From sequence record MT446416.1: a stretch of 64,000 nt of DNA. One strand, given 5' to 3'. The notes beneath the pieces are model-generated. The model saw only the letters and a list, made by a program, of their open reading frames with translations. It was not told where the DNA came from and did not search any database. Source of the stretch: Escherichia virus TH47. This document shows, in pieces, positions 26,853-42,475 of this stretch (position 1 is the first letter of the stretch; each line of letters opens with the position of its first letter). The position numbers and the translations under genes were made by a program.

Positions 26853-26885
26853 ATTATAGCAAAAAGGGCTGACCGAAGTCAACCC
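26853..26885 (-). promoter_or_regulatory. terminator-promoter cassette (copy b)
   Basis: GGGTTGACTTCGGTCAGCCC hairpin + T5, TTGACT(-35)-N18-TATAAT, then GAGGA RBS. Confidence 0.6.
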
Positions 26886-26895
26886 TTTTGTATTG

Positions 26896-28044
26896 TTATT
26901 TCTTGTCTAAGATTTGTACTTCACCATAAATCTGTACGATTTGCTTTTCTGGATTACCTTCGATAAGTTTTAGAAAAGATTTCAGTACTGCAACGTGGTC
27001 TTCATAGTATGCAATCCTAATGAAGTTGTAACCGTTGTTGATGGCGTACTCAGTTTTTATTGCGTCTTTTATCTTTCTTTGTTCAAAAGCACTTTTGCCG
27101 CCCCATAATTTGATTGATTGAAAATGTTGTACTCCATCATATTCCAGAAGGATTCGTTTACTTTCAATAAATCGATCAAAAGGTAATGGCTTTTTGAACT
27201 TACAATCAATGAAGCGTTTCTCTTTTATGGTATCATCTTCTAACATACCATCAATATCAACTAAATTCTTACTCTCACCTGATGAACAGGTAGGACATGA
27301 AGACTCAGATGATATATAGTTATGATATGATGGATAAAATGGGTTATTACAATCATTACACTGTAAATGTAATTTTGTTTTTGATGTTTCATAAACACCT
27401 CCCACAAATCCAATAAAGGTATTATTACAAACTGCGTTTCTTTTATCTATTTCATATTTGACTACTAGAATATTCAAACGAATCTTTTTTGCCGAGCTGT
27501 AATCACGACATTCAACACAATTATGACCATTAAGAAAATCATAAATGTTCTCACATAAACGAGTATGGTTGTTTTTACATTTGTACCAAAATTTAGATTT
27601 GAATTTTGTAGTAAATTCACCTTCAAATTTGATAAATGTAATAGATTCACGTTTACACTCTTTTTGTATTTCTTTTAATGCATCAGATTCAGATATTTTG
27701 ATAGTGTTTTGGTACTCTTTTCTTTTCTTCTTACCACATATCTGACATCCACCAGAGATAAGATAACTTTTCAGTGAACTTGTACATAAAGTGCTGCATG
27801 TTCCACATCTAAACAGAACTTTATTCTTTTCTAGTCCAAAAAATTGATTACTGTTTGATATCTGTAAGCCAAAAATAGTATCTTCTTTTTCAATGGCTTT
27901 TAGTTTAATTTCATCAATTCTAACGATAGTTTTTTTATTTTTTACAGGAACATTTTCTATTTTCATGTACTCAAATTTAGTACATAATTCTTCAATAATA
28001 TAAACTTTCTCACCATCTTCATTTAAATAGTACTTTTCAAACAT
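26896..28044 (-). CDS. zinc-ribbon-repeat protein with C-terminal PD-(D/E)xK-like (DUF559/Vsr-like) nuclease domain
   Basis: multiple CxxC pairs; C-terminal ...DCKF...LLEYDGVQHF...FIRIAY pattern. Confidence 0.55.
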   Translation of the reverse strand: MFEKYYLNEDGEKVYIIEELCTKFEYMKIENVPVKNKKTIVRIDEIKLKAIEKEDTIFGLQISNSNQFFGLEKNKVLFRCGTCSTLCTSSLKSYLISGGCQICGKKKRKEYQNTIKISESDALKEIQKECKRESITFIKFEGEFTTKFKSKFWYKCKNNHTRLCENIYDFLNGHNCVECRDYSSAKKIRLNILVVKYEIDKRNAVCNNTFIGFVGGVYETSKTKLHLQCNDCNNPFYPSYHNYISSESSCPTCSSGESKNLVDIDGMLEDDTIKEKRFIDCKFKKPLPFDRFIESKRILLEYDGVQHFQSIKLWGGKSAFEQRKIKDAIKTEYAINNGYNFIRIAYYEDHVAVLKSFLKLIEGNPEKQIVQIYGEVQILDKK

Positions 28045-28060
28045 TACTCAATACTCCTTT

Positions 28061-28273
28061 TCAGTACTGAACCCGTCCAGCACCATTAATCTTAGCCTGA
28101 ATCTTATCTTTTTCGACAAGACCTTCTTTGTAATCGATGGACGTATTATCGCACTGAATTACATCTAAGTCAAGTACTTCTTGTGTACTTAATGAAGTAT
28201 TGTCTGCAATTTGTTGTAAAGTAATGATATCAGTACCGAAGAATTCTGCTAAACGTATAAAAGATAATTTCAT
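28061..28273 (-). CDS. hypothetical protein (70 aa)
   Basis: ORF co-oriented and tightly spaced with downstream nuclease gene. Confidence 0.5.
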   Translation of the reverse strand: MKLSFIRLAEFFGTDIITLQQIADNTSLSTQEVLDLDVIQCDNTSIDYKEGLVEKDKIQAKINGAGRVQY

Positions 28274-28299
28274 GTGTTACCTCTTAAGTTGATGAAATA

Positions 28300-28331
28300 A
28301 TTATAGCAAAAAGGGCCGACCGAAGTCAACC
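28300..28331 (-). promoter_or_regulatory. terminator-promoter cassette (copy c)
   Basis: same hairpin and TATAAT. Confidence 0.6.
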
Positions 28332-29116
28332 ATGTTTGAAAGGATTTTTTAATGGTTTTAGTACTGTATGTATTCTGCTGTGTAGTTCTTCTTCCCACAA
28401 AACATTTACATTATAAACTAAATCATTGTAATCACTGTACTCAAATATAAAATCATACTTTTCATCAAAAGTATGAGAAATCAATTTCATTTTCATCAGT
28501 ACAATAGAACTTTTAAATTTATATGTTTCTTTTTCTTCTCCGGTTTTTGAGATTGGTATATTTTTTACAAATTCTTTGAATTCATCATCAGTCATAGTTT
28601 AACCATATATTATTTAACCAGTATTAGTCCCAATATAGTCACTCCATAAATTATATATATTGTTTTCAACACAATCATCATCGCTTAATTCTATCATTGA
28701 TGATATAAGTACTGATACGGTTTGTGTGTTCAAATCGGTATCGCGATGTTTCAACCACCATTTCAGGGTGAGGGTGAGTGTTCGTGCTGTGTTTGGATTA
28801 TTTGTAAATTTATATCTGGTGGTATCGAGAATCATTTTAAATCTTCTTTCATTTAATTATATAAACAAAGTACTCATGTAATTTTAATTACTTTTGTATA
28901 TTGAATCACATTGTCTACTCAATAGTTTATAGTATGCTTTACCACGAGGAAATAGTTTACGTGTATGTTCTCCTTTTCCCCACGGTCCTAAATATGTTTT
29001 ACGCGTGTCATGATTATTAAAGTTCTTTGATACAGTTGATTTTGTACCAATAGGATCTTTCTTACTAAAATAGATAGACATTATAAAGTTTTCTCTTTAC
29101 TAAGTTTATGTATTAA

Positions 29117-29136
29117 CGGACTGACCGAAGTCAACC
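29117..29136 (-). terminator. cassette hairpin (copy d, degenerate promoter)
   Basis: GGGTTGACTTCGGTCAGTCC downstream of denV stop. Confidence 0.5.
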
Positions 29137-29143
29137 CTTTCCT

Positions 29144-29659
29144 TTAATAATTATTCATTTCATCTTTGATTTGTTCTTCAATTTCGTCGAACATATCAGT
29201 ACTAGATTCTATATTACTACTTACGTCCTGCATATCTTTAACGTACTGTGGGCGTTCAACGTCAGTAAATTTATACCACTTAGGCTTCATCTGGAGCTTC
29301 TCAATCAAACGCTCACGAGACATTTTAATCTCTGACTCCGATGGTACGTAGTCATTACAAAACTCAGCAGGGAAGCCGCTAATGTCGTTTACTTCAGTGT
29401 TTTGAATCTTCATACCACGACGCAAACATTCATTAACAATATCAATATGACGCTTCTGTAAGTACAATAACTTGTTGTAGAAGAATGTTACATGACCTGA
29501 ACCTAACAGGTAAGTACTGTTAATTTTGAAATCACGGACTCGCTTACGTGCTTGAACATGTTTTTGTACAGCACCAAACACACGTGGGAGTTCACGATAT
29601 TCAGCCATCAGATGTTGGTCAGCAAGTTCTTTAACGTGTACTAAGTTAATGCGTGTCAT
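29144..29659 (-). CDS. denV: pyrimidine-dimer DNA glycosylase (endonuclease V) homolog
   Basis: N-terminal [35 protein letters not shown] closely matches T4 DenV as recalled; about 35-aa acidic C-terminal extension. Confidence 0.85.
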
Positions 29660-29687
29660 GTATTCATCCTCTCGTTTCGATGAAATG

Positions 29688-29719
29688 ATTATAGCAAAAA
29701 GGGCTGACCGAAGTCAACC
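29688..29719 (-). promoter_or_regulatory. terminator-promoter cassette (copy e)
   Basis: hairpin + TATAAT upstream of denV. Confidence 0.6.
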
Positions 29720-29728
29720 TTTTTCTTA

Positions 29729-31252
29729 TTATTGTTTTACCCCGCCCCACTTTTCATAGATTGCAATAATCTTATACAAGTTTGTGATGTTAGTTGTTTC
29801 CGTGTAACCATCTTTCATTTCATTTTTGGTAAGTACACCTTTACCAAAAATCCTCTTACACTCCTGTTCTGCTGACCTACAACTTTTGGGAGTGCTGAAA
29901 TGATAATACAACATTGAAGAAACTTTATATATACATTTATTGTCTTGGTGCTTCTGGCGGCGACCATGAACCTTTTCAATTCCATATTTCAATGCAATAG
30001 GTAACTCACCATCATAGATCACATGAATGTATGCAAATTGTTGATTATGATTAGAACATTCGGGGCAACCGGAACCACCAAGGTGAGCATTTGGAGTTAT
30101 TTTGAACTCACCATGTTCGCTACATTCAACCTTAACTAATTTATGTGCATTCACATAATTCGTTTTAGGATATGTGTACTTCCCATTATGTACTTTAGAT
30201 GCCTTTTCAATAAATTCAGGTGTACTAGAACGTTCACATCCTGAACATTTAGAACAACCATTTTTTTCATGTAGATGGTGTGTTGGTTGCTGCGTGAACA
30301 CACCATGTTCTTTACAAACAATCGATACTTTAGTTTTTAAGTTTTTATATTTAACTAAAGAATAATCATATTTGTCTCCATGTATTTCATGTGCTTTTTT
30401 GATGAACGTTTCGGTAGTTAACGCCATCTTTCCACTACACTCTAAACAACCATTGCCAGCCACATGTTTACTGGCAAGTTGCTCAAAATCACCATGTTCT
30501 GGACATGTAATTATAACTTTTCCACGTCCATTTATATAGATAGTTTTATCATATGAATATTTGTCACCGTGAACTTCTTTACATTTTTTGATGAAATCCG
30601 GGGTGTCTTTATATCTATACGTACCACTACATTTAGCACATTTAAAACCACTTAGGTGGTTTGCTGGGGTTTGTTCAAAATCACCATGTTCTTTGCATGT
30701 TATTGTAACTTTGGTTTTTGAGTTGATGTACACAACTTTATCGTATGTGTACTCAAAATTATGTTTAACATTTGCCTTCATGATAAAGTGCTCATTCGTA
30801 GAAACTCTTCCCAAGTGTACAATTGAACCGTCTTTATTCATCTTAGTGCATAAATTACATCCACGTTTTTTTCTTAAATGATCACTAACTCTTTTCTCAA
30901 AATCACCATGTTCTGGACATGTTATAATTACTCTAGAAGAATTAGAAACATCATCTTGTACCTTATCATAAAGGTACACATCACCAAAAATAGCACGAGA
31001 CTGTTCGATGAATTTAGCTTTACCCTTTCGAAAGTGTAGTCCATTTTTTGTATATCTACATTTTTTGCAGCCAGATGACCGTAAATGAGTTCCAGCAATT
31101 TGTTCGAACTCACCATGTTCTGGACATGTAATAATCACTGAGGTTCTTGAATTAACATAAACCACTTTAGTATAATCGTACTTAAAATTATGCAATTTAT
31201 TCGCTTGTTTTACAAACTCTTCTTTATTCATTGCGACTGGCATTGTATTCAT
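29729..31252 (-). CDS. zinc-ribbon-repeat protein with C-terminal GIY-YIG-superfamily (T5orf172-like) domain
   Basis: repeated ITCPEHGDFEQ...C..C modules; C-terminal AYIHVIYDG...LKYGIE...DGYTET. Confidence 0.55.
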   Translation of the reverse strand: MNTMPVAMNKEEFVKQANKLHNFKYDYTKVVYVNSRTSVIITCPEHGEFEQIAGTHLRSSGCKKCRYTKNGLHFRKGKAKFIEQSRAIFGDVYLYDKVQDDVSNSSRVIITCPEHGDFEKRVSDHLRKKRGCNLCTKMNKDGSIVHLGRVSTNEHFIMKANVKHNFEYTYDKVVYINSKTKVTITCKEHGDFEQTPANHLSGFKCAKCSGTYRYKDTPDFIKKCKEVHGDKYSYDKTIYINGRGKVIITCPEHGDFEQLASKHVAGNGCLECSGKMALTTETFIKKAHEIHGDKYDYSLVKYKNLKTKVSIVCKEHGVFTQQPTHHLHEKNGCSKCSGCERSSTPEFIEKASKVHNGKYTYPKTNYVNAHKLVKVECSEHGEFKITPNAHLGGSGCPECSNHNQQFAYIHVIYDGELPIALKYGIEKVHGRRQKHQDNKCIYKVSSMLYYHFSTPKSCRSAEQECKRIFGKGVLTKNEMKDGYTETTNITNLYKIIAIYEKWGGVKQ

Positions 31253-31272
31253 CCTCTCGTCTTGATGAAATA

Positions 31273-31305
31273 ATTATAGCAAAAAGGGCTGACCGAAGTC
31301 AACCC
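31273..31305 (-). promoter_or_regulatory. terminator-promoter cassette (copy f)
   Basis: same element. Confidence 0.6.
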
Positions 31306-31712
31306 TTTTTTCTTTCAATCAAACATAGTCTACCAGAATGTACCATGCGATGGTGATTAGAACAAAGAATCATACACTTTCGAATTTCATCTTTGATAGA
31401 TTCTCGACTTTTACTGAACATAGAACTTGGTGTATGTTCTTTGGTATTAGGATCAAGATGGTGAAAGTCTAAACATTCTGGATACTTCATCATACAAATA
31501 CTACAACCATAAAATGATTTAACTCTGGTCATGAAATCTTTATTTTTTCTTTTGATTTCTTCAAGTTTTTTGACCTCAGTTTTTTTATTTCTGGTTTTCT
31601 TACTGGTAATATTTCTACAATCGTTGCATGTATTTCTATGTTTCCCAGTATCACTTCTTATACCAAATTCACTAATGTTTTTTTCAATATTACATGTAAT
31701 ACACTTCTTCAT
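31299..31712 (-). CDS. HNH endonuclease (137 aa)
   Basis: CSICMM...CLDFHHLDPNTKE...CMILCSNHHRMVH; extra CxxC pairs. Confidence 0.7.
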   Translation of the reverse strand: MKKCITCNIEKNISEFGIRSDTGKHRNTCNDCRNITSKKTRNKKTEVKKLEEIKRKNKDFMTRVKSFYGCSICMMKYPECLDFHHLDPNTKEHTPSSMFSKSRESIKDEIRKCMILCSNHHRMVHSGRLCLIERKKG

Positions 31713-33555
31713 TGTTTAATCCATTTATTCAACAATACCCAACTTCACAATCTCATACCCGTCCAGATAGCCGTAGTAACACTCAGGTGTTTCATAAGAT
31801 GAACCATCATGGATGCCCTGGCATTGACTTTTGGAATTCTCAAGCAATCGTTGCAGTACTGATACGTCATCATGAACGTAATACAAGTTAGCATATAGGT
31901 CAGTTACAATACAGTACTCCAACATGTCAAATGTATCAATCGAAATTTCAACCTTAGCAAATCGTTTCTTTTCTTTATTACACAATGCGTACATATTAAT
32001 CTCCATAATCAAGTTTAACCAACTTACCACACAGATACCCAAAGTTTTCAGGCTTCGCATCTGAATAGAAGAAGTCAGTACTTAACTCTGAATTCAATGC
32101 TAAAGCACACAACTCCACCCAAAATAAACCCCTATGTTGTACTGGCTTACAACGTTTCTGTACAGTTACTAGTCCAGTACATGATGACCACAAAGTAGGA
32201 CAGATACCAGTATCACTACGCTTGGAGTACTGCATCCATCAGTCGATTACGAGTACGTAGTTTCATATAAGTTATCCTTATTTCAAAGAATCATAGTAAG
32301 CAGTGTCAAAGATTGGAGTCATAATAACATAGTCAATACGGTCAATGTAAGTTGAACTCCACATTTCTGGTTTGTCATAAAATTGACGCTCGCGTTCATT
32401 CATACGAGTCAGTACTTCTTCCAATTTACTACGTGAAGCCATCAATGTATTACGCGATCCATAAGTGAAGTACTCAGTCCATTGATATTCATATTCAGTA
32501 CTGATAGATTGAATAGTACCATCTTTGAAATGAGCTAAGGCATATCCTTTCTCTACAAAGTTATCAGGTGGAAGAACACCATCTGGATTAGTTTTCAATG
32601 CTTTGGTTAACTTTTCTTTAATTTCAGTTAACGTGCATACTGAACGAATGTTCTTCAGGTTTGATACTTGAAAATCACTGTACTTTCCAAAGAAAAATAC
32701 ACGCCAATCTTTAGGTTCATTATCAGATACGGTAATATTCGGATGATGGGCGAGTAAACGAAGAAGGCCAGCTTTGTGACCGTTAATGTAGATCTCATGG
32801 ATGTGGTTAGCAGTTTTCTTAAAAGTAATCATGACAATTCCTCGATTGTGGGGATGAGAAGTTCATCCCCTTGATAAACATTATACAGTACTGAATGAGT
32901 TTGTCAACTCAAAATAAATTCATTTCATGTGCGTATTGTGGTTCAAGATGCGATAAGTTTTTGAAGCTTTCTTTCAACTCAGCATCATCTACATACACCG
33001 TGCCTGGTACATTCCCCATAGTGAAACCTACCCACACAGTCATGTCACCAGTCCCTAAGCGTGGCATTGATAGCGAACCATCAGGTGAAACATCAAACGC
33101 TACACTGAAGTCATCAGTAACAACGTCATAACCATTTTCGAGAATAATACATCCACTATCTTTAAGCTTCTGAATGTGGATAGCAGCCTCTACAGCACGT
33201 TTGAAGTTATAGTAAGACTCTTTATCCTCAAACATTGATTGTTTAATCAGACGCTTGTTTAGCTCGGTTACTTTGTGCATTTGACGCATTACTTATCCAT
33301 CTCCAACAGTTGTAGAATTTCATAAGAGCCTGGTGGTGCTGGATTCCTGATCTCAGGGAATTGAGTACTTTTAGGATTACCACCAGCATTAAATTCATCA
33401 AGTAATGATTCGAGTTCATTCCTATCATGAACAACAAACACGCAATATCCAGTACCTTCTTCAAGAACAGTAGTTGAACCCGCACAATCCCATACTGTAT
33501 CAATACATAATAATTCTTTAGTGTTTTTGTTACGCAATGCAAACATATATGTCTC

Positions 33556-33924
33556 CTATCGATTCGGCATATTCTTTCGTAGTCGCAAGAGAAATTCAAC
33601 CACTGACCATGTTGAAATGAAGGTAATATAAGTTGCCAAGAATCCGGTAAGAATAAATGCAACCAGCGTACTACCATTTGGTCCATCTGCTTTAATACCA
33701 ATTATACCATCAACTACAGTGAAACATGTAGCCATTAGCGTGTAGCAGACGTACAACACAAAGAAGAACTCATTCTCCATTGAAGGGTAGAAACGGTTAA
33801 ACACTTTATAAAATTTAAAGTACAGTAGGATTATACCAACAAAGACATAAAATGTAAACAGGGTTGTTATAATATATGAGATTAGGTTCAAATTATACAT
33901 ATTAACGCTCCGGTAAATTATCAC
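33556..33924 (-). CDS. small polytopic membrane protein (family, second cluster)
   Basis: 122 aa; FKFYKVFNRFYP motif; C-terminal RLRKNMPNR. Confidence 0.6.
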   Translation of the reverse strand: MIIYRSVNMYNLNLISYIITTLFTFYVFVGIILLYFKFYKVFNRFYPSMENEFFFVLYVCYTLMATCFTVVDGIIGIKADGPNGSTLVAFILTGFLATYITFISTWSVVEFLLRLRKNMPNR

Positions 33925-34249
33925 GTAAGGTTTTAATTCGATTATACAATTTCACTGAAACATTACCAAATATACCATATCCAAGTACTAAAATGTATGC
34001 AATAAGCATAGTAATAATTACTATAGTGCCAAAACTATAATGTACACTACTGATACCCAATGTAGTTTCAACGATTATTTGGGAAAGAGAAAGAATCAAA
34101 AGTACAACTACAATAGGATGATTTGGATACATCCTATTAAATAGTGTTTTGTACTTGAAGAAGCAAAGCACTCCACCAAATAAGAAGTAAACAATGTAAA
34201 TGCAAGCAACAGCATAGGCAAACACGTTAGTGTAATAAATCATTATCAA
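33902..34249 (-). CDS. small polytopic membrane protein (family)
   Basis: 115 aa; FKYKTLFNRMYP; C-terminal LRDNLPER. Confidence 0.6.
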   Translation of the reverse strand: MIMIYYTNVFAYAVACIYIVYFLFGGVLCFFKYKTLFNRMYPNHPIVVVLLILSLSQIIVETTLGISSVHYSFGTIVIITMLIAYILVLGYGIFGNVSVKLYNRIKTLRDNLPER

Positions 34250-34252
34250 TCC

Positions 34253-34591
34253 TTATTTTTCAGGGATATTAGAACGCCATACATCAAGGCGATGGATCAG
34301 CTCAAAAAACAACCATACTGGAAAGAAAGATATCATAACACCAAGTGATAACCCGGTCAATACCGATACCAGATTTAATTCATCAGTACTATATCCACAT
34401 ATCAGTACTTCTAATATTCCCCACGTACACGCACAGAATACCAAGAATGAAATCGGTGCATCATAATAGATACGTTCATATAAAGTAGTGTATCGGAAGA
34501 ATGCAATAATGTAGCAAAACATGAAATATACCCACATCAATGACACTACATAGAATGACACTTTATTAATTAATTCAAAATTTTGTTCCAT
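34253..34591 (-). CDS. small polytopic membrane protein (family)
   Basis: 112 aa; FRYTTLYERIYY; C-terminal WRSNIPEK. Confidence 0.6.
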   Translation of the reverse strand: MEQNFELINKVSFYVVSLMWVYFMFCYIIAFFRYTTLYERIYYDAPISFLVFCACTWGILEVLICGYSTDELNLVSVLTGLSLGVMISFFPVWLFFELIHRLDVWRSNIPEK

Positions 34592-34885
34592 TTTATACCT
34601 TCAAATATTCAGAAAATAATGCATGAGCTTCTTCTATATTCTTGAGATAATACATATGATATAGATTTGGTTGACCATTTTTATAACTTAAATCGAAGTA
34701 CTTTAAACTATGCACCTTCATGACAAAAACAAATAATGACTTAAAACCAATCTCACCGTACTTAATAAACAGTTCATCTAAATGAATGTAACTCTTAGTT
34801 TCAGATAATTCCTTCACATCAGCTTCAATTTCTTGTAAGCGAAGTTTACCGATTAAGTTTTCAAATGAACGCATGATGTTGTTCC

Positions 34886-35299
34886 TTATGCTGGTACACA
34901 ATTTTTTATAATGAATACACGTTTCATGAATGAACTTTCATATACGTACTTCAGTTTACCATTTTCACGCATACGATGAAACACATCTTTACCACTAGTA
35001 CTCCAGGTTGAACCAGTCTCTGTATCAACATTGTTCATAACACCAGATGTTACGTTCACCCCGTACTTGAAGCTAAAGGTACTACCTTCTTCTACCAGAG
35101 GGATTGGTGTACTACGTTCATGTTCCAGTACAAGTTTACTGCCGATGATGTTGTACGAAGTTAGATTGCATTTTAAAACACCCATCTCTTGTGCAGTTGG
35201 GTAATTCTTCTCAAACAAATCAGATACTTCATTTGCATAACAAACTGAACTAATCATCAGAAGTAATGAACTGATAGAACGGAAAATAACTTTTAACAT
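34886..35299 (-). CDS. secreted protein (137 aa)
   Basis: signal-peptide-like N-terminus; cassette copy upstream. Confidence 0.6.
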   Translation of the reverse strand: MLKVIFRSISSLLLMISSVCYANEVSDLFEKNYPTAQEMGVLKCNLTSYNIIGSKLVLEHERSTPIPLVEEGSTFSFKYGVNVTSGVMNNVDTETGSTWSTSGKDVFHRMRENGKLKYVYESSFMKRVFIIKNCVPA

Positions 35300-35325
35300 G
35301 TTTGCCTCCAGTAGTTGATGAAATG

Positions 35326-35358
35326 ATTATAGCAAAAAGGGCCGACCGAAGTCAACCC
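35326..35358 (-). promoter_or_regulatory. terminator-promoter cassette (copy g)
   Basis: same element. Confidence 0.6.
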
Positions 35359-35363
35359 TTTTT

Positions 35364-35976
35364 TTATATTTTACATATTATGTCTGGTTTTGGCTTTTCA
35401 TTCTTTGGCTTTTCAAATGGATTTGGCTTAGGGGACTTTTTATCTTTGTCATCTTTAGCTTTCTTTTTGTTTTCTTTTTTATCCGATTTGTCAGCTTTGT
35501 CTTTCTTATCCTTGGAATCTTTGTCAGCTTTAGATTGTGGTTCCTCACATACAGCAGCTTTTGGCTCCGGCATATCACATGAGTTATCCACAGGTTTAAT
35601 GAACTCTTTACAGTTGTAGAAGTATAAACTTTCATTGGTAGTAAGATTGTGGAATCTAAAGGTATTTTCACCATTAGTATATACTTTCTTAGTACTCTCA
35701 ATATCATTACACATTGCAACCGTGTCACCGGAATTCATGCTCGACACCTAGTACATCAGATTTACGTTCAGATAGTATTCCAGACGTATATCGATCTTTG
35801 TTATCAAATGCATTGAACCCTATAGTTTTATTATTGTCATGTACTAATCCTCTAGTGTAAGACTTAGTATAGAACTCACCGTTTCTAAACTCCTGTCTAG
35901 CAATGGAGCACTGGTATTCAGTACTATAAGCTATATCAGTAAACAATACAAGTGAAAATAAAACATATTTAAACAT
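35364..35976 (-). pseudogene. split gene (two frames) paralogous to 34886..35299; C-terminal Lys-rich low-complexity tail
   Basis: ORFs 35725..35976 (signal peptide) and 35364..35747 overlap by 23 nt in +1 frame; together they resemble the single 34886 protein. Confidence 0.45.
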
Positions 35977-36022
35977 TGCATTACCTCTTATAAAAACCCT
36001 CTACAATATTTACAAAAAAAAA

Positions 36023-36040
36023 GGTTGACCGAAGTCAACC
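36023..36040 (-). terminator. cassette hairpin (copy h)
   Basis: perfect GGTTGAC-CGAA-GTCAACC palindrome with 9-nt T-run on minus strand. Confidence 0.6.
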
Positions 36041-36050
36041 TTTTAAATGT

Positions 36051-37580
36051 TTATTTTTGATACTTGCTCATGATATCTTTTTCCCAAGAAGTTACGTTAC
36101 CATTGTCGTAATCCTTGAATGAGTTATCAAGTGTAGTTAGTGCATACTCATATGCTTCTGGTGATTCGATGTCAACATCATCTGCACCATTGACTAAATC
36201 AGACCAAGCCTTTTGAAGTTTACGAGCATTATTACCAACATTATTTTTAATCCAACTAATGTTTCTGTTGATACTTTTACTATCAGCCCCGGCTTTTTTA
36301 CCAATCTCTGATATCCACATCATTAGCTTTTGAAGTTCATGAATTGAGTTATCGTTCATTTCACGATCTTTAGAAAGTTCTGCTTCCATACCATCGGAAC
36401 CAGTACTGTCAGATGAACCAACGTCAATTCCATTTTTAGCTAATAGTTTACCAAGTTCAAAGAATGCAGCTTCAGCAGGGAAGTCATAACCTTTCTCTTT
36501 GTAGTTATTCCATGCACTATCAAACTCGTCAACAAAACGGTTAGCATAATCTGGATTTTTAACTAATGCTTTATATACTGCCATTGCATGTTCAAAACCT
36601 TCTTTATCTGACCCAAACTCTTCCATCTCAGGACGATGAATGTATCCATCCATATCAACGGTATCAGGTAGTTCTTCTTGCTCAGGCTCAACATCTTTCT
36701 GTTCAACTGCACCTTCTTCATCTTTACGTAGTAGATATCCATCAGGTGTCACTTTCTCACCATGTTCTGCTTCATACTTTTTCATGGTATTGAATGCAGC
36801 ATCCATAGCTGTTACGAAGCGACTTTTCTCACCTTGTACATAAGATTTAAGTGCACTATTAACAGCGTCAGATACGAGCTTAACCTTATCGTCTTTACCT
36901 TCTAAACGGTTTTCAAGTTTAGCCAGTACATTCTTGACTTGCTGGGCATTAGCACGGTCTGCTTTACCAATACTATCAAAAGTTTTAAGAATACCATCAA
37001 GACTTGCTTCACCCTGTTCAGGTTCTTTGGAATCTTCTTTGTGTGTACCTTCAAGTGCACGCATGATAGTACTGAATACTTCAGTAGGTTCAGTGCTCTT
37101 ATTACCTTTCATTGCATCAAGTACAGCTTGTGCTTTACCTTTGAGTTCTTCTTTAGGAACTGCCTGTAGTGCTTTGACAATACCCTGAATCAACTGTGGT
37201 TTGTTAGCAAATATCTTACCTAAGTTATCAGAAAGTTCTTTGACAGGGTTAGATGCTTTTGATTGTGCAGGTGCTTCTGGTTCTACTTCTGGACGTTCTT
37301 GTGCATTATCCATTGCAGCTAGTTGTTCTTTTTGATGAGCATTAAGTAATCCCAAAGCATTCATGTATTTTAATTTTTCATGTGGATTCATTTTGGAAGT
37401 ATCTGTTACTTCACCTGGCTTTGCATTTTCTACACCTTGTGCACCAGTGCTTTGGTTACGACTCATTTTTCTACCACTATGATAGTTTCCAGCAGGGCGG
37501 TACTCCGACTTGCGTTTTGAATGTTGAACAATTGCACCATTTCTGTGCTTCATATCACCATTATTATAATCACTAGGCAT
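36051..37580 (-). CDS. large hydrophilic protein (509 aa)
   Basis: long ORF, basic N-terminus, acidic and coiled-coil-like body; no recognised domain. Confidence 0.65.
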   Translation of the reverse strand: MPSDYNNGDMKHRNGAIVQHSKRKSEYRPAGNYHSGRKMSRNQSTGAQGVENAKPGEVTDTSKMNPHEKLKYMNALGLLNAHQKEQLAAMDNAQERPEVEPEAPAQSKASNPVKELSDNLGKIFANKPQLIQGIVKALQAVPKEELKGKAQAVLDAMKGNKSTEPTEVFSTIMRALEGTHKEDSKEPEQGEASLDGILKTFDSIGKADRANAQQVKNVLAKLENRLEGKDDKVKLVSDAVNSALKSYVQGEKSRFVTAMDAAFNTMKKYEAEHGEKVTPDGYLLRKDEEGAVEQKDVEPEQEELPDTVDMDGYIHRPEMEEFGSDKEGFEHAMAVYKALVKNPDYANRFVDEFDSAWNNYKEKGYDFPAEAAFFELGKLLAKNGIDVGSSDSTGSDGMEAELSKDREMNDNSIHELQKLMMWISEIGKKAGADSKSINRNISWIKNNVGNNARKLQKAWSDLVNGADDVDIESPEAYEYALTTLDNSFKDYDNGNVTSWEKDIMSKYQK

Positions 37581-37623
37581 CGTGTGCCCTCCTTTAACAT
37601 AAAATATATTATTATTTATTATA

Positions 37624-38808
37624 CTACTTAATACTGTTCACATCAAGTTCTTGTACATTATATGATTCAATTATTTTTATTAATTTTTCATATTCCGATT
37701 CATTGATTGTTTCAGTATACCCGTCCAAATAATTTATTTTATCAATAACTTTTCTTTTTATGCCACTCATATGTTTAATAAAATATTCAAGTTCTTTGAT
37801 TAAAATACCATCAGCACTGTAATATGTTTTATATTTTTCAGTTCTAAATAAGTTTTTATTATATTGTTCAAATCTGTATATATAGTTGTTTGTTATACCA
37901 AATTTATAATATAACCTACCATTACCTAGTACTCGATGTATATAAAAATACCCAGGTTTACTTGGGTCATATCCACCTCGACTACAACTTGGACAACCTC
38001 TTTTCTTTTGAACAATATTTTGATATCGAGTTGTCCATTCAGGATGTTCACATTCTGAACATTTTAATGTAATTAATGTATGTACATTTTTATATATAAA
38101 TGGTTTATAAGTATATCCGTTAGATGTGCAAATTTCATTAAGTCTTTTAATTGATTCATCTTGTGAAAGACAAAGTTTTCTAGCTGTGGATTGATTTCCA
38201 CATTTTGCACATCCATTACCTTGATATACAAATTTATCATAACTTAAACTAAATTCATCATGGTCGGGATTGCAACATTTTAATGTAATTTTAGTTCTAT
38301 TATTTTTATATTCAAAAGGTTTATAAGTATATCCAGTAGTATTACATATGTTATTTACATTTAATTCTGCTTGTTGTTGGGTTAATTTTAACTTTCCACC
38401 ACATTCAATACATCCATTTTTCTTATTAACTAAAGAATTATAATTAGTTTCATGTGGTTTATGGGAGGCAACTCCACAATGAATTATTATTTTTGTTCCT
38501 ATAGCACCTTTAAAATCAAAGGGTTCATAAGTATATCCTTTTAATTCACATATTTCATGAACTTTAGTTCTTGCTGTTTTTTCTTTTAAAGAATTTCTTC
38601 CTTTACATTCTGGACACCCAGTTCTTTTATAAATGAATTTACTAAATTTACATTTCCATTCTTCATGTTTAAAGTTATCACATTTAAGTTCTAATATTGT
38701 TTTAGTGTTAATATAAGTGAAAGGTTTATATGTATAATTTTGTTCTAAACATCTGTTCGCTACTATTTTTTCAGCTTCTTCTTGTGTTAATCGTATCCCA
38801 CTAGCCAT
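37624..38808 (-). CDS. zinc-ribbon-repeat protein with C-terminal GIY-YIG-superfamily (T5orf172-like) domain
   Basis: four C..H..C..C modules; C-terminal GYFYIHRV...YKFGIT...DGYTETINESEY. Confidence 0.55.
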   Translation of the reverse strand: MASGIRLTQEEAEKIVANRCLEQNYTYKPFTYINTKTILELKCDNFKHEEWKCKFSKFIYKRTGCPECKGRNSLKEKTARTKVHEICELKGYTYEPFDFKGAIGTKIIIHCGVASHKPHETNYNSLVNKKNGCIECGGKLKLTQQQAELNVNNICNTTGYTYKPFEYKNNRTKITLKCCNPDHDEFSLSYDKFVYQGNGCAKCGNQSTARKLCLSQDESIKRLNEICTSNGYTYKPFIYKNVHTLITLKCSECEHPEWTTRYQNIVQKKRGCPSCSRGGYDPSKPGYFYIHRVLGNGRLYYKFGITNNYIYRFEQYNKNLFRTEKYKTYYSADGILIKELEYFIKHMSGIKRKVIDKINYLDGYTETINESEYEKLIKIIESYNVQELDVNSIK

Positions 38809-38852
38809 GAAATATAATCCTTGAATCTTTGTTATTTCATATATTTACTATA

Positions 38853-38880
38853 TAAAAAAAAGGCTGACCGAAGTCAACCC
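38853..38880 (-). promoter_or_regulatory. terminator-promoter cassette (copy i)
   Basis: same hairpin. Confidence 0.55.
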
Positions 38881-39110
38881 CTTTTAATTATTTTTTAAAC
38901 TTATGTTTTTCGCCGTCAATAGAGTTCACGATGACATCATGAATCTTGCGAAGGTTATGAGTTTTCTTTAGTGCTTCATGTAGTGCACGGAATGCTGCGT
39001 GTACTGTTGCCTTGAAGTGCTCTTTAGGAGTCACTTTAAGTTTCTCAATGATATCACGTACATAAATTGGATGATCTTCAAATACACGATTCAATTCATG
39101 GCCTAGTGAT

Positions 39111-39271
39111 TATAAACTGAAAGCTTTTTCGCGTGAAGGACGATCATGTGCAAGACTTTGGTCAGGCTTTAGTAGACCTAGTGAATCAAGATACTTATGC
39201 TTATGTGCATTATCAATTCCAGAAATATCCACATCATGCGATGGATCTTTCTTATTCCATTTATCAACCAT
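39111..39271 (-). CDS. small protein (53 aa)
   Basis: ATG ORF filling gap in ORF track; below cutoff. Confidence 0.35.
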
Positions 39272-42200
39272 TTCACACTCCTTAAAGAGATAAATTACTT
39301 TAATATTTATACTTCATGTGCTGTTTATTTCCACAGACACTTAAGATTATATCACATATGAAATGGTTGTTCCAAAGTCAAATCAGTACTGTTTAAGTTC
39401 TGAACTGAAGATAAAGGAATCCATATCTTCTAGTGTTAACTTCAAGTCCGGTGTGTACTTTAATATCACACATTCAGGTTTCTTAATGGCAGCTTGATAG
39501 GCAGCAATTGCCAACTGTTGAAGCTGCTCTGGTGTGTAGTTCATGCGTTCTGCATTGAATACGATGTTGTTAATATCACCACCTGGCAGCTTCTCAAACT
39601 CACGCATAACAGCAGCCATCACATCATCAGATGTATTCTTATAAGCCCAATGAGGTAGTTGCATAACATCATAAATCTCGCCATTGTCGTTCATAAGAGA
39701 GATCCATTTTTTACCGTCCGATGAACTAAACAGACGACCTTTAATAGCAATGTTCTCTACCAAATTAACAAAGGCAAATATGTCTTGCTCATTTAGTTCA
39801 ATGCTATTAACGTTAATCCAACCCATACTACATCTCCAGTTATAAATCACGAACGACATTCATTAAACACAATTTGGGCTTTATCGCATTCAAAACCCAT
39901 ATGCATTCTTTGTAAGTTGCTATTATAGCATCTAAATGCTCAGTTACAATGCTTTCTTGAAAATATTCTTCTTCATTGAGTTTTGCTAAATTAGTCACAT
40001 CACATGTAGGTACTATAGGTCTGGATTGTACACCCATTCCATTATTGATATTGGTAAAATGTAAAAAATTGTACTTCACCACACCGTTATCTACACTTAT
40101 GATGCATGTCAAATGTTCCAACTCAGTTAGTTCGGTATTACAAGTGACATGAATGAATCCAGCATTATAGGCTCTATAATCATCTACTAATATCTCAAAA
40201 TCATTACGTTCAAATATAAGTGAAATGAGTTTGTCTTGTGGTTTAACCTTCTGAAATTTTACCGAATTTACGTATGATACTTTAATCTTAGATGAAATTA
40301 TCTTTTTACTAAGTGCAGTTAATTCTTCTTTAGCCTTAAAAGTTAAAGTTATAGGTCTAAATCTAGAACTTTTGTTCTTCTTTGATACTTTGAACTTACC
40401 TTTTCTATTCATTAATTAAACCCCACATAAAGTAAAAGGGATGGCATATTACCAACCCTATATCTTTTATTTTTTAATAGATTCATAAAGCAGAAACAAC
40501 CAAATAAACATTGATGAACAAACTACTACTGGGATTAATGTAAATTCAGTAAAGAATAAAAGTATTCCATAAGTTAGTATGCAACATAAGTTTACGTACA
40601 TAATTGCTTCTGCATTTTTATTTTTCATTTTATATGCAATGAATGTTGGTGACCACATTACCAAAAATGCAAACAACGCACATATGATGATTACAGTTTC
40701 CATATTACACCTCCGCAAAATAATGTTCTGTACTGCTATTATTTACAGAGAATATCTAAAAAAATTGATCTAGATCAATTTTTAGTCACTTTACAATTTG
40801 AATCTTTTTTGTACTGAACAATCACATTGTTCTTAAGGAAGATGATGGTCCCATAGGAACCTTGGGCTGCAACTTCAACAATATGGTTCTTATATGTTTC
40901 AGTATACCCTTCCATCTCGTTGATACACACTACATGATACTTTGGTTTAGCACATACAACAGTACTCAAGAATAGCAGTACTAGTACTAGATATTTCATT
41001 TTATTACCTTATAAACAAGAACAGGAATCCTTTTACGGATTCCTATAATTTAGTCCTTTAATGTACCATTGTGTAAACGATTATACACATCATTGCGACG
41101 CAACGCAACAATATCTTCAGCGTACTTCATTGTAAACGCCCATGCTTTTGGATGCACATTAAGCTTCATACGAATGCGATTCTTCATCAATTCACCGCTT
41201 AGGCGAACAAACTCATGAACACCACGACTTCCGTACTCTGAAATCAAATCATTGATGTACATGTTGCGAAGGGTTTCGTCTGTACATTCTTTAACCATTT
41301 CTACGTCTGCCACGATGCTTGCATTTACTGAAGTACTGATCATTTTTAAGTTACCTTATTTGAATTGGACTGTAATTTTATCACCTTCAACTACGAACTT
41401 ACAGTCGTAGCGACGGGCCATATCCATATACATATGCTCAGAATACCACGGAACATCAATATCAGGATGCTCTGCGTATTGTAGCACTTCACGGTCACCA
41501 ACAGTAGTGATGACGAAAGGAATGTTCATCTCTCGCAAAAACAACTCAGCACCTGGTGAACGATTGACAAACTCAGTGTCGTTACGCAAAGTAAAACCAT
41601 TGTATTGTAATTTAAGCTTCATGATTATCCTCTAAGTTAATACCATTCTTTTAAACCATCAAGTTCGGCTATGTGAGTAATTATAACACAGATCACACTG
41701 AGGTCAAGCATTATTTGCTCATAATTTAATTTTATTCTATCATCATTGTATGCTCTAAAAACAACATCAAAGTCGAAGTAGTTATCGTTTTCATCATTCA
41801 TTGGAATGATTCTATATCTACGCCTACCATCATCATTGAATACAGTTAAACACTGTTTAAATTTCTTCATTATCTGTGTATTCAATGCATTGTAATATGC
41901 AACATCATATTGTGTACAACGTGGGTCATTGGGTAGATAAAACGATACAAATTTTTTTAATTCTATTTGAGTCTTATCCATATACAGCCTCATGTATTAC
42001 TCTTTTACTTTGGCGGTACTCATCCTTTGCTTCTTTCACTGACATGATACGAACCAGTTTAGCACTACCACAATAGTACTGAACCTGACTACGACCAATG
42101 TCAACATGATTATCAGGAACTTCATATACTGATACAGCAAACCCTGCACGATGTAATTTACCCAAGTCCATAGTAAAGAACTTAAACAAATCATTCAAAC

Positions 42201-42443
42201 TCTGACAGCCAAATGCCCAGCCACGTTTGATTGAATAGATTCCATCTTCAGTTGGTTCTGGTTGGAATTGCGAAGGCGTGGTCATGCACAAACGGTCAAA
42301 TCCATTTTTAGTACTGTATCGTGAAGAGTACCGTGCGAACGGACCTACTGTTTTTGCTGGATCTAAGTTAGGTTCAATATAACTGAATTTAAGTTCAAAA
42401 CGATATACGTACATAATTAAAATCCCCAGTATTTGATGAAATA

Positions 42444-42475
42444 ATTATAACAAAAAAGGCTGACCGAAGTCAACC
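42444..42475 (-). promoter_or_regulatory. terminator-promoter cassette (copy j)
   Basis: same element; TGA stop of 42470..42691 lies inside the stem. Confidence 0.6.

What the first reader, a model, noticed from the sequence alone, without database searches (positions are those of the whole stretch)
35364..35976. Split gene with Lys-rich tail: +1 frame junction within a paralog of the neighbouring secreted protein
35725..35976 (signal peptide plus about 60 aa) and 35364..35747 overlap by 23 nt in the +1 frame. Joined, they resemble the single protein 34886..35299. The downstream part ends in a K/D-rich low-complexity tail (KADKDSKDKKDKADKSDKKENKKKAKDDKDKK). This is either a recent pseudogene, an assembly error or a programmed frameshift.
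Basis: seen in the sequence. Interest (0 to 1): 0.45.

Follow-up and report, generated by a model that had tools for sequence, protein, structure and literature searches.

The report
Conserved split gene, probable +1 frameshift
A jumbo coliphage keeps a gene for a small secreted beta-barrel protein in two reading frames, joined at the conserved sequence UUY-CGG-UGA, and comparison with unsplit relatives suggests ribosomes shift +1 there to make the whole protein; no protein evidence exists yet.

Summary
The window comes from a jumbo coliphage of the 121Q/PBECO4 group (Asteriusvirus).

This is neither an assembly error nor a recent pseudogene.
- All 15 related phage loci I read have the same layout.
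- So do two much more distant metagenomic lineages, only 40-55% identical in protein.
- Both halves are under purifying selection (pN/pS about 0.2).

Salmonella phages Munch, 7t3 and SE_PL and three metagenomic relatives encode the same protein as one unbroken ORF. Their sequence aligns across the junction without a gap. The 3-4 "spacer" codons between the stop and B's ATG, read in frame B, match coding residues of those proteins.

The split falls in a loop inside one predicted beta barrel. B has no signal peptide but keeps five conserved cysteines. Every split lineage keeps Phe/Tyr, then CGG, then UGA (AGA in one), then GAY.

- **Best reading (about 0.58):** a programmed +1 frameshift at UUY_CGG_UGA makes a 203-aa secreted protein.
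- **Main rival (about 0.3):** B is started separately at its conserved ATG.

Sequence does not support paralogy with the neighbour at 34886..35299. The two share only a predicted fold class.

The parts
36019..36044 (-). Terminator hairpin upstream of ORF A. It belongs to a repeated cassette, GGTTGACTTCGGTCARCC plus a T run, and marks the start of the A-B transcription unit.
   Evidence: Terminator scan. The cassette has 11 copies in the window against 0 expected by chance.
35983..35989 (-). Shine-Dalgarno sequence AAGAGGT for ORF A.
   Evidence: Read from the sequence. Aligned spacing is 7 nt in the SD survey.
35725..35976 (-). ORF A, 83 codons plus TGA. It encodes the signal peptide (35976..35923), five beta strands of the barrel and one Cys (YQC). 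Its last sense codons are GAA TTC CGG.
   Evidence: It matches PHROG 28901 (E = 4e-42; function unknown). For the mature part, dN/dS against 121Q is about 0.11.
35724..35733 (-). Proposed recoding site, TTC CGG TGA C. These would be the E-site Phe codon, the P-site rare Arg codon CGG and the A-site UGA. The next codon in the +1 frame is GAC (Asp).
   Evidence: In the four split lineages CGG is invariant, the penultimate residue is Phe or Tyr, and the next codon is TGA or AGA followed by GAY. CGG makes up 0.89 per 1000 codons in the window. ORF A is the only gene of 92 that ends on it.
35715..35726 (-). 'Spacer' codons read in frame B: GAC ACG GTT GCA = D T V A. They lie between the stop of A and the ATG of B.
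   Evidence: They align with D-N-V-A of the unbroken proteins of Munch and P0008. Variants in relatives are GAC/GAT, ACG/ACA/TCA/TCC/AAT, GTT/GTA/GTG and GCA/GCT/GTA, mostly third-position changes.
35712..35714 (-). Conserved ATG, a possible independent start for B (MCNDIES...).
   Evidence: Present in every split lineage, one codon earlier in L021. The unsplit homologues have F, Y or I at the aligned position. The only SD-like sequence is GGTGA at an aligned spacing of 13 nt.
35364..35747 (-). Mechanical ORF B as listed, from the GTG at 35747 (an ATG also lies at 35738) to the TAA at 35366..35364. The upstream starts occur only in this clade.
   Evidence: 121Q has no start codon upstream of the conserved ATG.
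35601..35726 (-). Frame-B codons 1-42 (DTVAMC...FYNCKE), encoding the C-terminal four strands of the barrel.
   Evidence: pN/pS is 0.20 against 121Q. The strands are mapped from the AlphaFold2 model of the unsplit homologue P0008.
35535..35600 (-). Cys-containing linker (FIKPVDNSCDMPEPKAAVCEEPQS).
   Evidence: pN/pS is 0.75, but both Cys are conserved in Munch, P0007 and P0008; P0014 keeps only the first.
35367..35534 (-). Low-complexity tail rich in K, D and P, ending in the conserved NPF...KP.PD..C motif.
   Evidence: The matching region of the P0008 model has pLDDT below 50.
35326..35357 (-). Terminator/promoter cassette that closes the A-B unit and drives the next gene. The -35 box TTGACT sits inside the hairpin, and TATAAT lies 18 nt downstream.
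   Evidence: The promoter scan matches 11 of 12 positions. The cassette match is at 35340..35357.
34886..35299 (-). Neighbouring secreted protein (121Q gp204 family, 137 aa). It is not part of the split gene and serves only as a comparison.

Best explanation
ORF A and ORF B are two halves of one gene. The gene encodes a small secreted protein with a Sec-type signal peptide, a beta meander of about nine strands modelled as a small barrel, a Cys-containing linker and a disordered K/D/P-rich tail.

An ancestor of the 121Q/PBECO4-like jumbo phages gained a one-nucleotide frame change in a loop between strands 5 and 6. The split has been kept ever since.

The full-length 203-aa product would be made when a fraction of ribosomes shift +1 at UUY_CGG_UGA_Y. 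Inferred steps:
1. Peptidyl-tRNA-Arg(CCG) sits on the rare CGG codon in the P site.
2. The slowly decoded UGA occupies the A site (AGA in one lineage).
3. The nascent chain ends in Phe or Tyr followed by Arg.
4. The U is skipped and GAY (Asp) is read next.
5. Translation continues as ...E-F-R-D-T-V-A-M-C-N-D...

Ribosomes that do not shift terminate and release the 83-aa A fragment. B may also be started on its own at the conserved ATG.

Shown here: the conservation of the split and of the site, coding constraint in both frames and across the spacer, and homology to unbroken proteins. Inferred: that the shift occurs, its mechanism and its efficiency.
For: 1. **Unbroken homologues exist and align across the junction without a gap.**
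   - These are Munch CPT_Munch_523, 7t3_0109, SE_PL, and P0006, P0007, P0008 and P0014.
   - tblastn matches residues 1-143 of the joined protein in one piece (E = 1e-25), whereas every listed Asteriusvirus gives two pieces.
2. **The spacer behaves as coding sequence in frame B.**
   - It reads D-T-V-A, D-S-V-A, D-S-V-V or D-N-V in the split lineages, against D-N-V-A or D-N-N-S in the unbroken proteins.
   - The Asp is invariant in all eight sequences aligned.
   - The Val codon appears as GTT, GTA and GTG.
3. **The constraint changes frame exactly at CGG-TGA.** TTC>TTT is synonymous in frame A but Ser>Phe in frame B. Immediately downstream, the changes are synonymous in frame B.
4. **B is under purifying selection.** Its barrel part has pN/pS 0.20, the same as A at 0.22. 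Out-of-frame controls exceed 1.
5. **B cannot easily work alone.**
   - It has no signal peptide.
   - It keeps the Cys positions of the secreted unbroken proteins. A has one Cys and B has five.
   - In the model of P0008 the junction falls in a loop between strands 5 and 6 of one beta domain.
6. **The site itself is conserved at the nucleotide level.**
   - All four split lineages have Phe/Tyr, CGG, then TGA/AGA. That holds down to 40% protein identity.
   - In unbroken homologues the two residues at that place vary (AK, EM, LK, LT).
   - CGG is the rarest Arg codon here (14 of 15,779 codons, about 2.4% of Arg codons), and TGA accounts for 21 of 92 stops.
7. **There is precedent.**
   - E. 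coli pheL, UUC_CCC_UGA, gives 15% +1 frameshifting. The penultimate Phe hinders termination; Tyr works about half as well (PMC3082878).
   - Listeria phages use CCC_UGA. The yeast antizyme site GCG_UGA_C is described as anomalously shift-prone (PMC5009743).
   - tRNA-Arg(CCG) belongs to the m1G37 class together with the Pro and Leu(CUN) tRNAs. That methylation is needed to maintain reading frame (PMC8384417, PMC3617221).
8. **B lacks a normal ribosome-binding site.** The only SD-like sequence is GGTGA(T) at an aligned spacing of 13 nt. In a crude survey, 52 of 82 minus-strand genes in the window have an SD at spacing 3-10.
9. **A and B form one transcription unit** between two terminator/promoter cassettes.
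Against: - There is no protein, ribosome-profiling or reporter evidence.
- tRNA-Arg(CCG) cannot re-pair well in the +1 frame (CGG to GGU keeps one of three pairs). I found no report of CGG_UGA as a frameshift site in bacteria.
- An ATG lies within two codons of the conserved Cys in both split clades: position 5 in the window, 121Q and L025 types, position 4 in L021. No unbroken homologue has one there. That pattern looks like selection for a start codon.
- CGG[T/A]GA also contains GGTGA or GGAGA, which resembles a Shine-Dalgarno sequence 7-10 nt upstream of that ATG (aligned spacing 10-13).
- No SD-like stimulator at the prfB spacing was found, and no conserved stable downstream RNA structure. 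The consensus fold is -6.8 kcal/mol with only one compensatory pair.
- The spacer argument rests on only 3-4 codons.
- The P0008 model that locates the junction is of modest quality (mean pLDDT 55; core blocks 64-80), and the junction loop itself is below 50.
Confidence: 0.58

Rival explanations
1. The gene split long ago into two separately translated polypeptides. Ribosomes terminate at the UGA of A, and B starts afresh at the conserved ATG 7-10 nt downstream. This could happen by termination-reinitiation or through the weak SD-like GGTGA/GGAGA. A is exported. B stays in the cytoplasm, or reaches A by some other route. No fused product is made.
For: - An ATG is kept close to the junction in every split lineage. 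It has even moved by one codon in L021. The unbroken homologues have F, Y or I there.
- GG[T/A]GA matches the 3' part of the extended SD sequence.
- The stop-to-start distance is short.
- In L025 the A frame ends at a TAA that overlaps B's second and third codons, a classic coupling layout.
- Databases annotate two genes.
- CGG has poor +1 re-pairing potential.
Against: - It does not explain why the spacer keeps Asp-x-Val in frame B, with synonymous variation, matching the unbroken proteins.
- It does not explain why Phe/Tyr and the C of CGG are invariant. AGG would encode the same residue and make a better SD.
- B has no export signal, yet it keeps five Cys shared with the secreted unbroken proteins and forms four strands of a single barrel.
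- An aligned SD spacing of 10-13 nt lies outside the 3-10 range that most genes in the window use.
Confidence: 0.3
2. The locus is a dead or dying gene. The frameshift inactivated it, and what remains is decaying.
For: - Ecwhy_1 annotates B only as a misc_feature 'similar to hypothetical protein'.
- Some genomes have truncated tails: PBECO4, SD-1_S14 and CMSTMSU.
- Turkey5 lacks the pair altogether, and the search with the neighbouring protein suggests the same for JNE01.
Against: - Both halves are under purifying selection between clades and within them (pN/pS 0.08-0.37), while out-of-frame controls exceed 1.
- The frame structure is unchanged across lineages down to 40% protein identity.
- The tail truncations sit in A-rich runs, and at least one of the affected records (CMSTMSU) is flagged unverified.
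Confidence: 0.04
3. The frame change is a sequencing or assembly error in this window.
For: None beyond the fact that a one-nucleotide frame change is a common type of error.
Against: The identical junction is found in nine genomes about 97% identical to the window, in the 121Q/PBECO4 clade, and in independent metagenomic contigs.
Confidence: 0.01

Closest known systems
'Shifty stop' +1 ribosomal frameshifting in bacteria and phages: E. coli prfB (CUU_UGA_C), Listeria phage PSA/A118/A500 tsh (CCC_UGA), E. coli pheL (UUC_CCC_UGA)
   Same: - The downstream ORF is in the +1 frame.
- The shift would occur on the last sense codon before a UGA.
- The P-site tRNA belongs to the m1G37 class.
- A penultimate Phe is present, as in pheL.
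- The arrangement is conserved across relatives.
- The result would be a short termination product plus a longer fused product.
   Different: - The P-site codon is CGG, whose tRNA cannot re-pair well on GGU. CUU and CCC can.
- There is no SD-like stimulator at the prfB spacing.
- One lineage has AGA instead of the stop.
- The product is a secreted accessory protein, not a release factor or a tail protein.
- No experimental evidence exists.
Antizyme +1 frameshifting (UCC_UGA_U in mammals; GCG_UGA_C in S. cerevisiae OAZ1)
   Same: - The pattern is the same: sense codon, UGA, pyrimidine, with Asp (GAY) as the first +1-frame codon.
- The main body of the protein lies downstream.
- Like CGG, the yeast P-site codon GCG offers poor +1 re-pairing (my own reading of the codons).
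   Different: Antizyme is eukaryotic, regulated by polyamines, and uses downstream pseudoknots or nascent-peptide signals. There is no homology to this gene.
Translationally coupled adjacent genes, and three-product frameshift loci (my own recollection of insertion sequences such as IS911: OrfA, OrfAB by frameshift, and OrfB by internal initiation)
   Same: - The stop of the upstream ORF lies close to the start of the downstream ORF.
- A start codon is conserved.
- Three products are possible: A, A-B and B.
   Different: - As I recall it, the IS911 shift is -1 on a slippery heptamer.
- Here the downstream part is half of a single domain and lacks the export signal it would need.
121Q gp204 family, the neighbouring gene at 34886..35299
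   Same: - Both have a signal peptide and a beta meander of roughly 100 aa, with a Cys in the first and last strands.
- They are adjacent in the genome.
   Different: - No significant sequence similarity.
- gp204 is unbroken, has an extra N-terminal helix and lacks the charged tail.

Membership tests
Programmed +1 frameshift at a shifty stop | Two ORFs, the second in the +1 frame, with the arrangement conserved among relatives | tested here: met
   All 15 phage loci read and two distant metagenomic lineages share the frame structure. Every listed Asteriusvirus gives two tblastn pieces.
Programmed +1 frameshift at a shifty stop | The joined reading corresponds to a real single protein, with coding constraint continuing across the junction in the new frame | tested here: met
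   Unbroken homologues align across the junction without a gap. The spacer codons are conserved as Asp-x-Val-(Ala), with mostly third-position changes.
Programmed +1 frameshift at a shifty stop | A slow-to-decode A-site codon (a stop or a rare codon) directly after the shift codon | tested here: met
   UGA in three lineages and AGA in L025. That AGA is slowly decoded in E. coli is taken from general knowledge, not tested here.
Programmed +1 frameshift at a shifty stop | A P-site tRNA able to re-pair with the overlapping +1 codon (CUU>UUU, CCC>CCU) | tested here: not met
   Moving from CGG to GGU keeps only the middle pair with anticodon CCG, as read from the sequence. The shift would have to occur without re-pairing.
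Programmed +1 frameshift at a shifty stop | A stimulatory element: an SD-like sequence 3 nt upstream as in prfB, or a downstream structure | tested here: inconclusive
   Only purine-rich GAG, GAA or AAG codons lie 3 nt upstream. The downstream hairpin is weak, and the consensus fold of -6.8 kcal/mol has one compensatory pair. No Rfam family reaches its threshold. The conserved penultimate Phe/Tyr could be a nascent-peptide signal (PMC3082878).
Programmed +1 frameshift at a shifty stop | A trans-frame protein product is demonstrated | not testable with these tools
   The literature searches run here turned up no proteomic or ribosome-profiling data for this gene.
Translationally coupled, independently functional gene pair | A conserved start codon close to the upstream stop | tested here: met
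   The ATG lies 7-10 nt after the TGA in the lineages that have the stop. In L025 the A frame runs on and ends at a TAA overlapping the start of B.
Translationally coupled, independently functional gene pair | A ribosome-binding site at functional spacing | tested here: inconclusive
   GGTGA or GGAGA lies at an aligned spacing of 10-13 nt, against 3-10 for most genes in the window.
Translationally coupled, independently functional gene pair | The downstream product is able to fold and localise on its own | tested here: not met
   B has no signal peptide. It carries four of nine strands of one predicted beta domain and five of the six conserved Cys of a secreted protein.
Pseudogene | Relaxed selection and lineage-specific disruptions | tested here: not met
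   pN/pS is about 0.2 in both halves, and the junction is the same in all lineages.
Paralog of the neighbouring secreted protein (121Q gp204 family) | Significant sequence or profile similarity | tested here: not met
   BLASTP gives E = 0.15. hhalign gives 26% probability over the signal peptide only.
Paralog of the neighbouring secreted protein (121Q gp204 family) | The same fold | tested here: inconclusive
'Lytic conversion lipoprotein' (annotation of fEgEco12 g556, the homologue of ORF A) | A lipobox with Cys at +1 of the mature protein | tested here: not met
   The signal peptide ends ...DIAYS|TEYQC, with no L-x-x-C lipobox. PHROG 28901 has no known function, and there is no Pfam hit.

The most novel reading that the evidence does not exclude
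UUY_CGG_UGA_Y is a working programmed +1 frameshift site of a type not described in bacteria. The shift would occur on the rare CGG codon, read by the only Arg tRNA that carries m1G37. It would occur without re-pairing, helped by a penultimate aromatic residue and a UGA read only by RF2.

Jumbo phages would have kept it over a divergence to 40% protein identity because it sets, or makes responsive to the host, the ratio of a truncated to a full-length secreted protein. The host signals could be RF2 activity, supply of tRNA-Arg(CCG) or TrmD methylation. B might be a third product, made by internal initiation.
Probability: 0.3. Interest if true: 0.72.

Novelty: new member of a known kind. Interest (0 to 1): 0.55.

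Why it matters
If the shift is real, this adds a phage case of +1 'shifty stop' recoding in a Gram-negative host. The shift codon (CGG) is not among those named in the frameshift papers I consulted, and it would extend the set of frameshift-prone P-site tRNAs to the third m1G37 class.

It would also correct the annotation of this locus in the Asteriusvirus-type genomes carrying it. These currently list two hypothetical proteins, one sometimes called a 'lytic conversion lipoprotein' or flagged as a pseudogene-like feature.

The site is short and easy to test in E. coli. The pheL precedent is a caution: frameshifting at such sites can be incidental. What argues for use here is long-term conservation together with an unbroken homologue.

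The function of the protein is unknown. It is a small secreted beta-barrel protein with a charged tail, and it evolves faster than the neighbouring structural gene (40% against 72% identity).

Tried and rejected
- **Paralogy with 34886..35299.** BLASTP and hhalign were negative. Only the predicted fold class is shared.
- **Phage-encoded suppressor or Arg tRNA.** There are no tRNA genes in the window. The tRNA cluster of the 97%-identical phage fEgEco12 holds Ser, Met, Asn and two Thr only (PMC13070987).
- **Translational bypass from CGG to the CGG 5 nt downstream.** It would land in the wrong frame, and the second CGG is absent in 121Q.
- **Transcriptional slippage.** There is no homopolymer run at the junction.
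- **Spanin pair (i-spanin/o-spanin).** B has no lipoprotein signal, and the unbroken homologues argue against it. I did not check the 121Q/PBECO4 spanin locus tags in the supplement of PMC6139136.
- **Conserved RNA stimulator.** Only a weak 6-bp hairpin was found, with no convincing covariation. Nothing in Rfam reaches threshold.
- **More relatives.**
  - IMG/VR and JGI metagenome scans added only 121Q itself and one unbroken homologue.
  - A profile search of 1.84 billion representative proteins found nine family members in all.
- **Function.** Pfam and PHROGs gave nothing beyond a family of unknown function. BFVD returned only the family itself.
- **Literature.** I found no report of frameshifting in 121Q-like phages.
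Full report
**1. What is in the sequence**

All genes in this region lie on the minus strand.
- ORF A runs 35976..35725 (83 aa) and ends ...GAA TTC CGG TGA.
- The mechanically listed ORF B runs 35747..35364, from a GTG.
- A starts with a typical Sec-type signal sequence (MFKYVLFSLVLFTDIAYS|TEYQC). This is my reading; no predictor was run.
- A and B sit between two copies of a repeated terminator/promoter cassette, at 36019..36044 and 35326..35357. No promoter-like site of comparable strength lies between them, so they form one transcription unit.

**2. Where the window comes from, and whether the split is real**

- The region is 97.4-97.6% identical to jumbo coliphages Ecwhy_1, BF17, WPEC5, fEgEco12 and others. 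It is about 76% identical to 121Q and PBECO4, genus Asteriusvirus.
- Every one of these genomes has the same two ORFs.
- In 121Q they are gp202 (83 aa) and gp203 (107 aa). The layout is TGA, 10 nt, then ATG, with the ATG in the +1 frame.
- That ATG corresponds to window 35714..35712 (MCNDIES...). The GTG and ATG further upstream, which create the 23-nt overlap, exist only in the window's clade.
- Across 15 phage loci the junction reads TT[C/T] CGG TGA.
- An assembly error is therefore excluded.

**3. Not a pseudogene**

Comparing the window with 121Q:

| Region | Measure |
|---|---|
| Mature part of A | dN/dS about 0.11, dS 1.3 |
| B, first 62 codons | pN 0.27, pS 0.81 (synonymous sites saturated) |
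| B, barrel-forming first 42 codons | pN/pS 0.20 |
| A, mature part, uncorrected | pN/pS 0.22 |
| Same DNA read in the other two frames | ratios 1.3-3.6 |

 Comparisons within clades give pN/pS of 0.08-0.25 for B. Both halves are being translated and are under selection.

**4. The key comparison: unbroken homologues**

- tblastn with the joined protein hits Salmonella phages Munch, 7t3 and SE_PL in a single piece covering residues 1-143 (37% identity, E = 1e-25). Every listed Asteriusvirus gives two pieces.
- Munch CPT_Munch_523 is one ORF with a signal peptide, the same motifs (FDNK, YTSG, FY[ND]C), the same six Cys and a charged tail ending NPF...PD..C.
- Further unbroken members:
  - a 192-aa protein on 360-kb viral and metagenomic contigs (L010, L019, P0008);
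  - P0007;
  - the more distant P0014.
- The alignment crosses the junction with no gap: window EHEFR|DTVAMCND against Munch KHKAK DNVAFCTN.

**5. Two more split lineages**

A profile search of 1.84 billion representative proteins found only nine family members. They include two divergent A/B pairs.
- **L021-L024** (P0018 + P0020). The junction reads AAG TTT CGG TGA TAATGTA ATG TCT TGT.
- **L025** (P0015 + P0017). The junction reads GAG TAC CGG AGA CAC AGT TGC TAT GTG TAA. Here the TGA is replaced by AGA, so the A frame runs six codons further.
- Both sit directly downstream of the homologue of the 509-aa structural protein, as in the window. That neighbour is 72% identical in L021.
- The A/B pair of L021 is only about 40% identical to the window's. 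This is about as far as either is from the unbroken Munch group.
- The split, and its site, are therefore old.

**6. Evidence that the junction is read through in the +1 frame**

*(a) The spacer.* Read in frame B from the base after the T of TGA, the spacer encodes the following.

| Lineage | Frame-B residues up to the Cys |
|---|---|
| Window clade, L025 | D-T-V-A-M-C |
| 121Q clade | D-S-V-A-M-C, or D-S-V-V-M-C in three loci |
| L021 | D-N-V-M-S-C |
| Unbroken proteins | D-N-V-A-F-C, D-N-V-A-Y-C, D-N-N-S-I-C |

- The Asp is invariant in all eight sequences aligned.
- The Val codon occurs as GTT, GTA and GTG. The second codon occurs as ACG, ACA, TCA, TCC and AAT.
- Between the window and 121Q, three of the four third positions differ but only one of the six first and second positions. 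That matches the pS and pN of the flanking coding sequence.

*(b) The change of frame.* TTC>TTT in slurp01 and G17 is synonymous in frame A but Ser>Phe in frame B. From the next codon onward the changes are synonymous in frame B.

*(c) The fold.*
- The AlphaFold2 model of P0008 has mean pLDDT 55, with core blocks at 64-80. It shows nine consecutive strands between residues 20 and 118 and a disordered tail.
- The junction (M76|D77) falls in the loop between strands 5 and 6.
- So B supplies four strands of a single domain.

*(d) Export.* B has no export signal, but it keeps five Cys that are conserved in the secreted unbroken proteins. A keeps the sixth. Conserved cysteines suggest disulfide bonds formed in the periplasm (inference), and B can get there only if it is attached to A's signal peptide.

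*(e) The site.*
- All four split lineages have Phe or Tyr, then CGG, then UGA or AGA, then GAY.
- In the unbroken proteins the two residues at this place vary (AK, EM, LK, LT) and lie in a low-confidence loop.
- This points to constraint on the nucleotides or the nascent peptide, not on protein function.
- CGG is the rarest Arg codon in the window (14 of 15,779 codons). ORF A is the only one of 92 crude gene calls ending on it. TGA is used for 21 of 92 stops.

**7. Proposed mechanism (inferred)**

- With UUY in the E site, CGG in the P site and UGA in the A site, termination is slow. A fraction of ribosomes read GAY in the +1 frame.
- Supporting literature:
  - In E. coli pheL, UUC_CCC_UGA gives 15% +1 frameshifting. 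This depends on the penultimate Phe, which hinders termination. Tyr is about half as effective and Arg abolishes the effect (PMC3082878).
  - Listeria phages use CCC_UGA for a tail protein. The yeast antizyme site GCG_UGA_C is described as anomalously shift-prone (PMC5009743).
  - tRNA-Arg(CCG) carries m1G37, as do the Pro and Leu(CUN) tRNAs. That methylation is needed to maintain reading frame (PMC8384417, PMC3617221). CUU and CCC, the P-site codons of prfB and of PSA tsh/pheL, are read by tRNAs of that class. This link is my inference.
- I found no sign of a phage-encoded helper tRNA. The window has no tRNA genes. The tRNA cluster of fEgEco12 holds Ser, Met, Asn and two Thr (PMC13070987).
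- Products expected: an 83-aa precursor (A alone) and a 203-aa precursor (A-B).

**8. Evidence against, and the main rival**

- Both split clades keep an ATG within two codons of the conserved Cys. It sits one codon earlier in L021 than in the others. No unbroken homologue has Met there. This looks like selection for a start codon.
- CGG[T/A]GA contains GGTGA or GGAGA, which matches part of the extended Shine-Dalgarno sequence. Its aligned spacing is 10-13 nt, however, whereas 52 of 82 crude gene starts in the window have an SD at 3-10 nt.
- tRNA-Arg(CCG) cannot re-pair on GGU. I found no report of CGG_UGA frameshifting in the papers consulted.
- There is no prfB-like upstream SD and no convincing conserved downstream structure. 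No Rfam family reaches its threshold.
- A model in which B is only started separately explains the ATG. It does not explain the spacer codons, the Phe/Tyr-CGG conservation or the lack of an export signal.
- A dual model fits all observations: a fused product by frameshift, plus some B from the ATG. As I recall, the insertion sequence IS911 makes three products in this way.
- The pheL paper warns that frameshifting at such sites can be incidental. What argues for use here is long conservation together with homology to an unbroken protein.

**9. The 'paralog of the neighbour' claim**

- The gp204-family protein at 34886..35299 shows no significant similarity to the joined protein (BLASTP E = 0.15; hhalign aligns only the signal peptide).
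- Its model is confident (pLDDT 85.6): a helix followed by about ten strands.
- Distant common ancestry is possible but not shown.

**10. Function**

Function is unknown.
- PHROG 28901, which covers A only, has no assigned function. There is no Pfam hit above threshold.
- BFVD returns only the family itself.
- The fEgEco12 label 'lytic conversion lipoprotein' is not supported, because there is no lipobox.
- The pair is dispensable in some relatives. Turkey5 lacks it, and the search with the neighbouring protein suggests the same for JNE01.
- It evolves much faster than its structural neighbour.

**11. Verdict**

| Reading | Confidence |
|---|---|
| Full-length protein made by +1 recoding at 35733..35724 | about 0.58 |
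| Two separately translated polypeptides only | about 0.3 |
| Dead gene | about 0.04 |
| Sequencing or assembly error | about 0.01 |

This is a conserved, selected split of a single gene for a secreted beta-barrel protein. If the frameshift is real, it is a new member of the shifty-stop +1 class, with an unusual shift codon. It can be tested directly in E. coli.

Noticed in passing
window 1020..51272, minus strand: 11 sites, including 36023..36040 and 35340..35357: A repeated hairpin, GGGTTGACTTCGGTCAGCCC followed by a T run, occurs 11 times on the gene strand against 0 expected by chance. The hairpin contains TTGACT, which at 35355..35326 pairs with a TATAAT 18 nt downstream (11 of 12 promoter positions). 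The element therefore looks like a combined terminator and promoter cassette between transcription units. It is also present after the homologous genes in Munch, L021 and L025.
   Followed up: partly
window 35367..35534; also L003, L005 and L012 (tails); L025:600-775: The A-rich K/D tail of ORF B is truncated or frame-shifted in CMSTMSU, PBECO4 and SD-1_S14. In the metagenomic contig L025, the conserved tail ending PLTCNI* lies in another frame and needs a further -1 change at GTAAAATG. These are probably homopolymer sequencing or assembly errors, but real slippage in the A runs was not excluded.
   Followed up: partly
window 33556..34591, minus strand: Three tandem ORFs of 112-122 aa are predicted to be small hydrophobic proteins with similar C-terminal motifs (...NIPEK, ...NLPER, ...NMPNR). 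They look like a paralogous array and correspond to 121Q gp207-209.
   Followed up: no
L017 (Turkey5); JNE01 by search hit only: Turkey5 lacks the A/B pair entirely. A gp204-like gene follows the structural protein directly, so the split gene is an accessory, dispensable locus. JNE01 gave the same kind of hit but its locus was not read.
   Followed up: partly
L004:3138-3812 (121Q gp205) and L018 (SHEFM2K), compared with window 34593..35299: 121Q-type phages carry a protein kinase gene between gp204 and gp206. SHEFM2K has a second gp204-like gene after the kinase. The window clade has no kinase at this position. In Munch the unbroken homologue lies just downstream of the kinase gene, so the link to the kinase is older than the present gene order.
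   Followed up: no
L002:1587-1838 (fEgEco12 g556) and L001:1828-2199 (Ecwhy_1_555): Public annotations of this locus disagree. ORF A is called a 'lytic conversion lipoprotein' in fEgEco12, although it has no lipobox. ORF B is only a misc_feature in Ecwhy_1. ORF A is given a 25-codon N-terminal extension that overlaps the upstream gene in phAPEC6, JP4 and SHEFM2K.
   Followed up: partly
window 35378..35728, minus strand: A 116-aa ORF lies in the third frame across ORF B (MTRLQCVMILRV...). It is a by-product of the A-rich, low-complexity coding sequence and was not examined for conservation.
   Followed up: no
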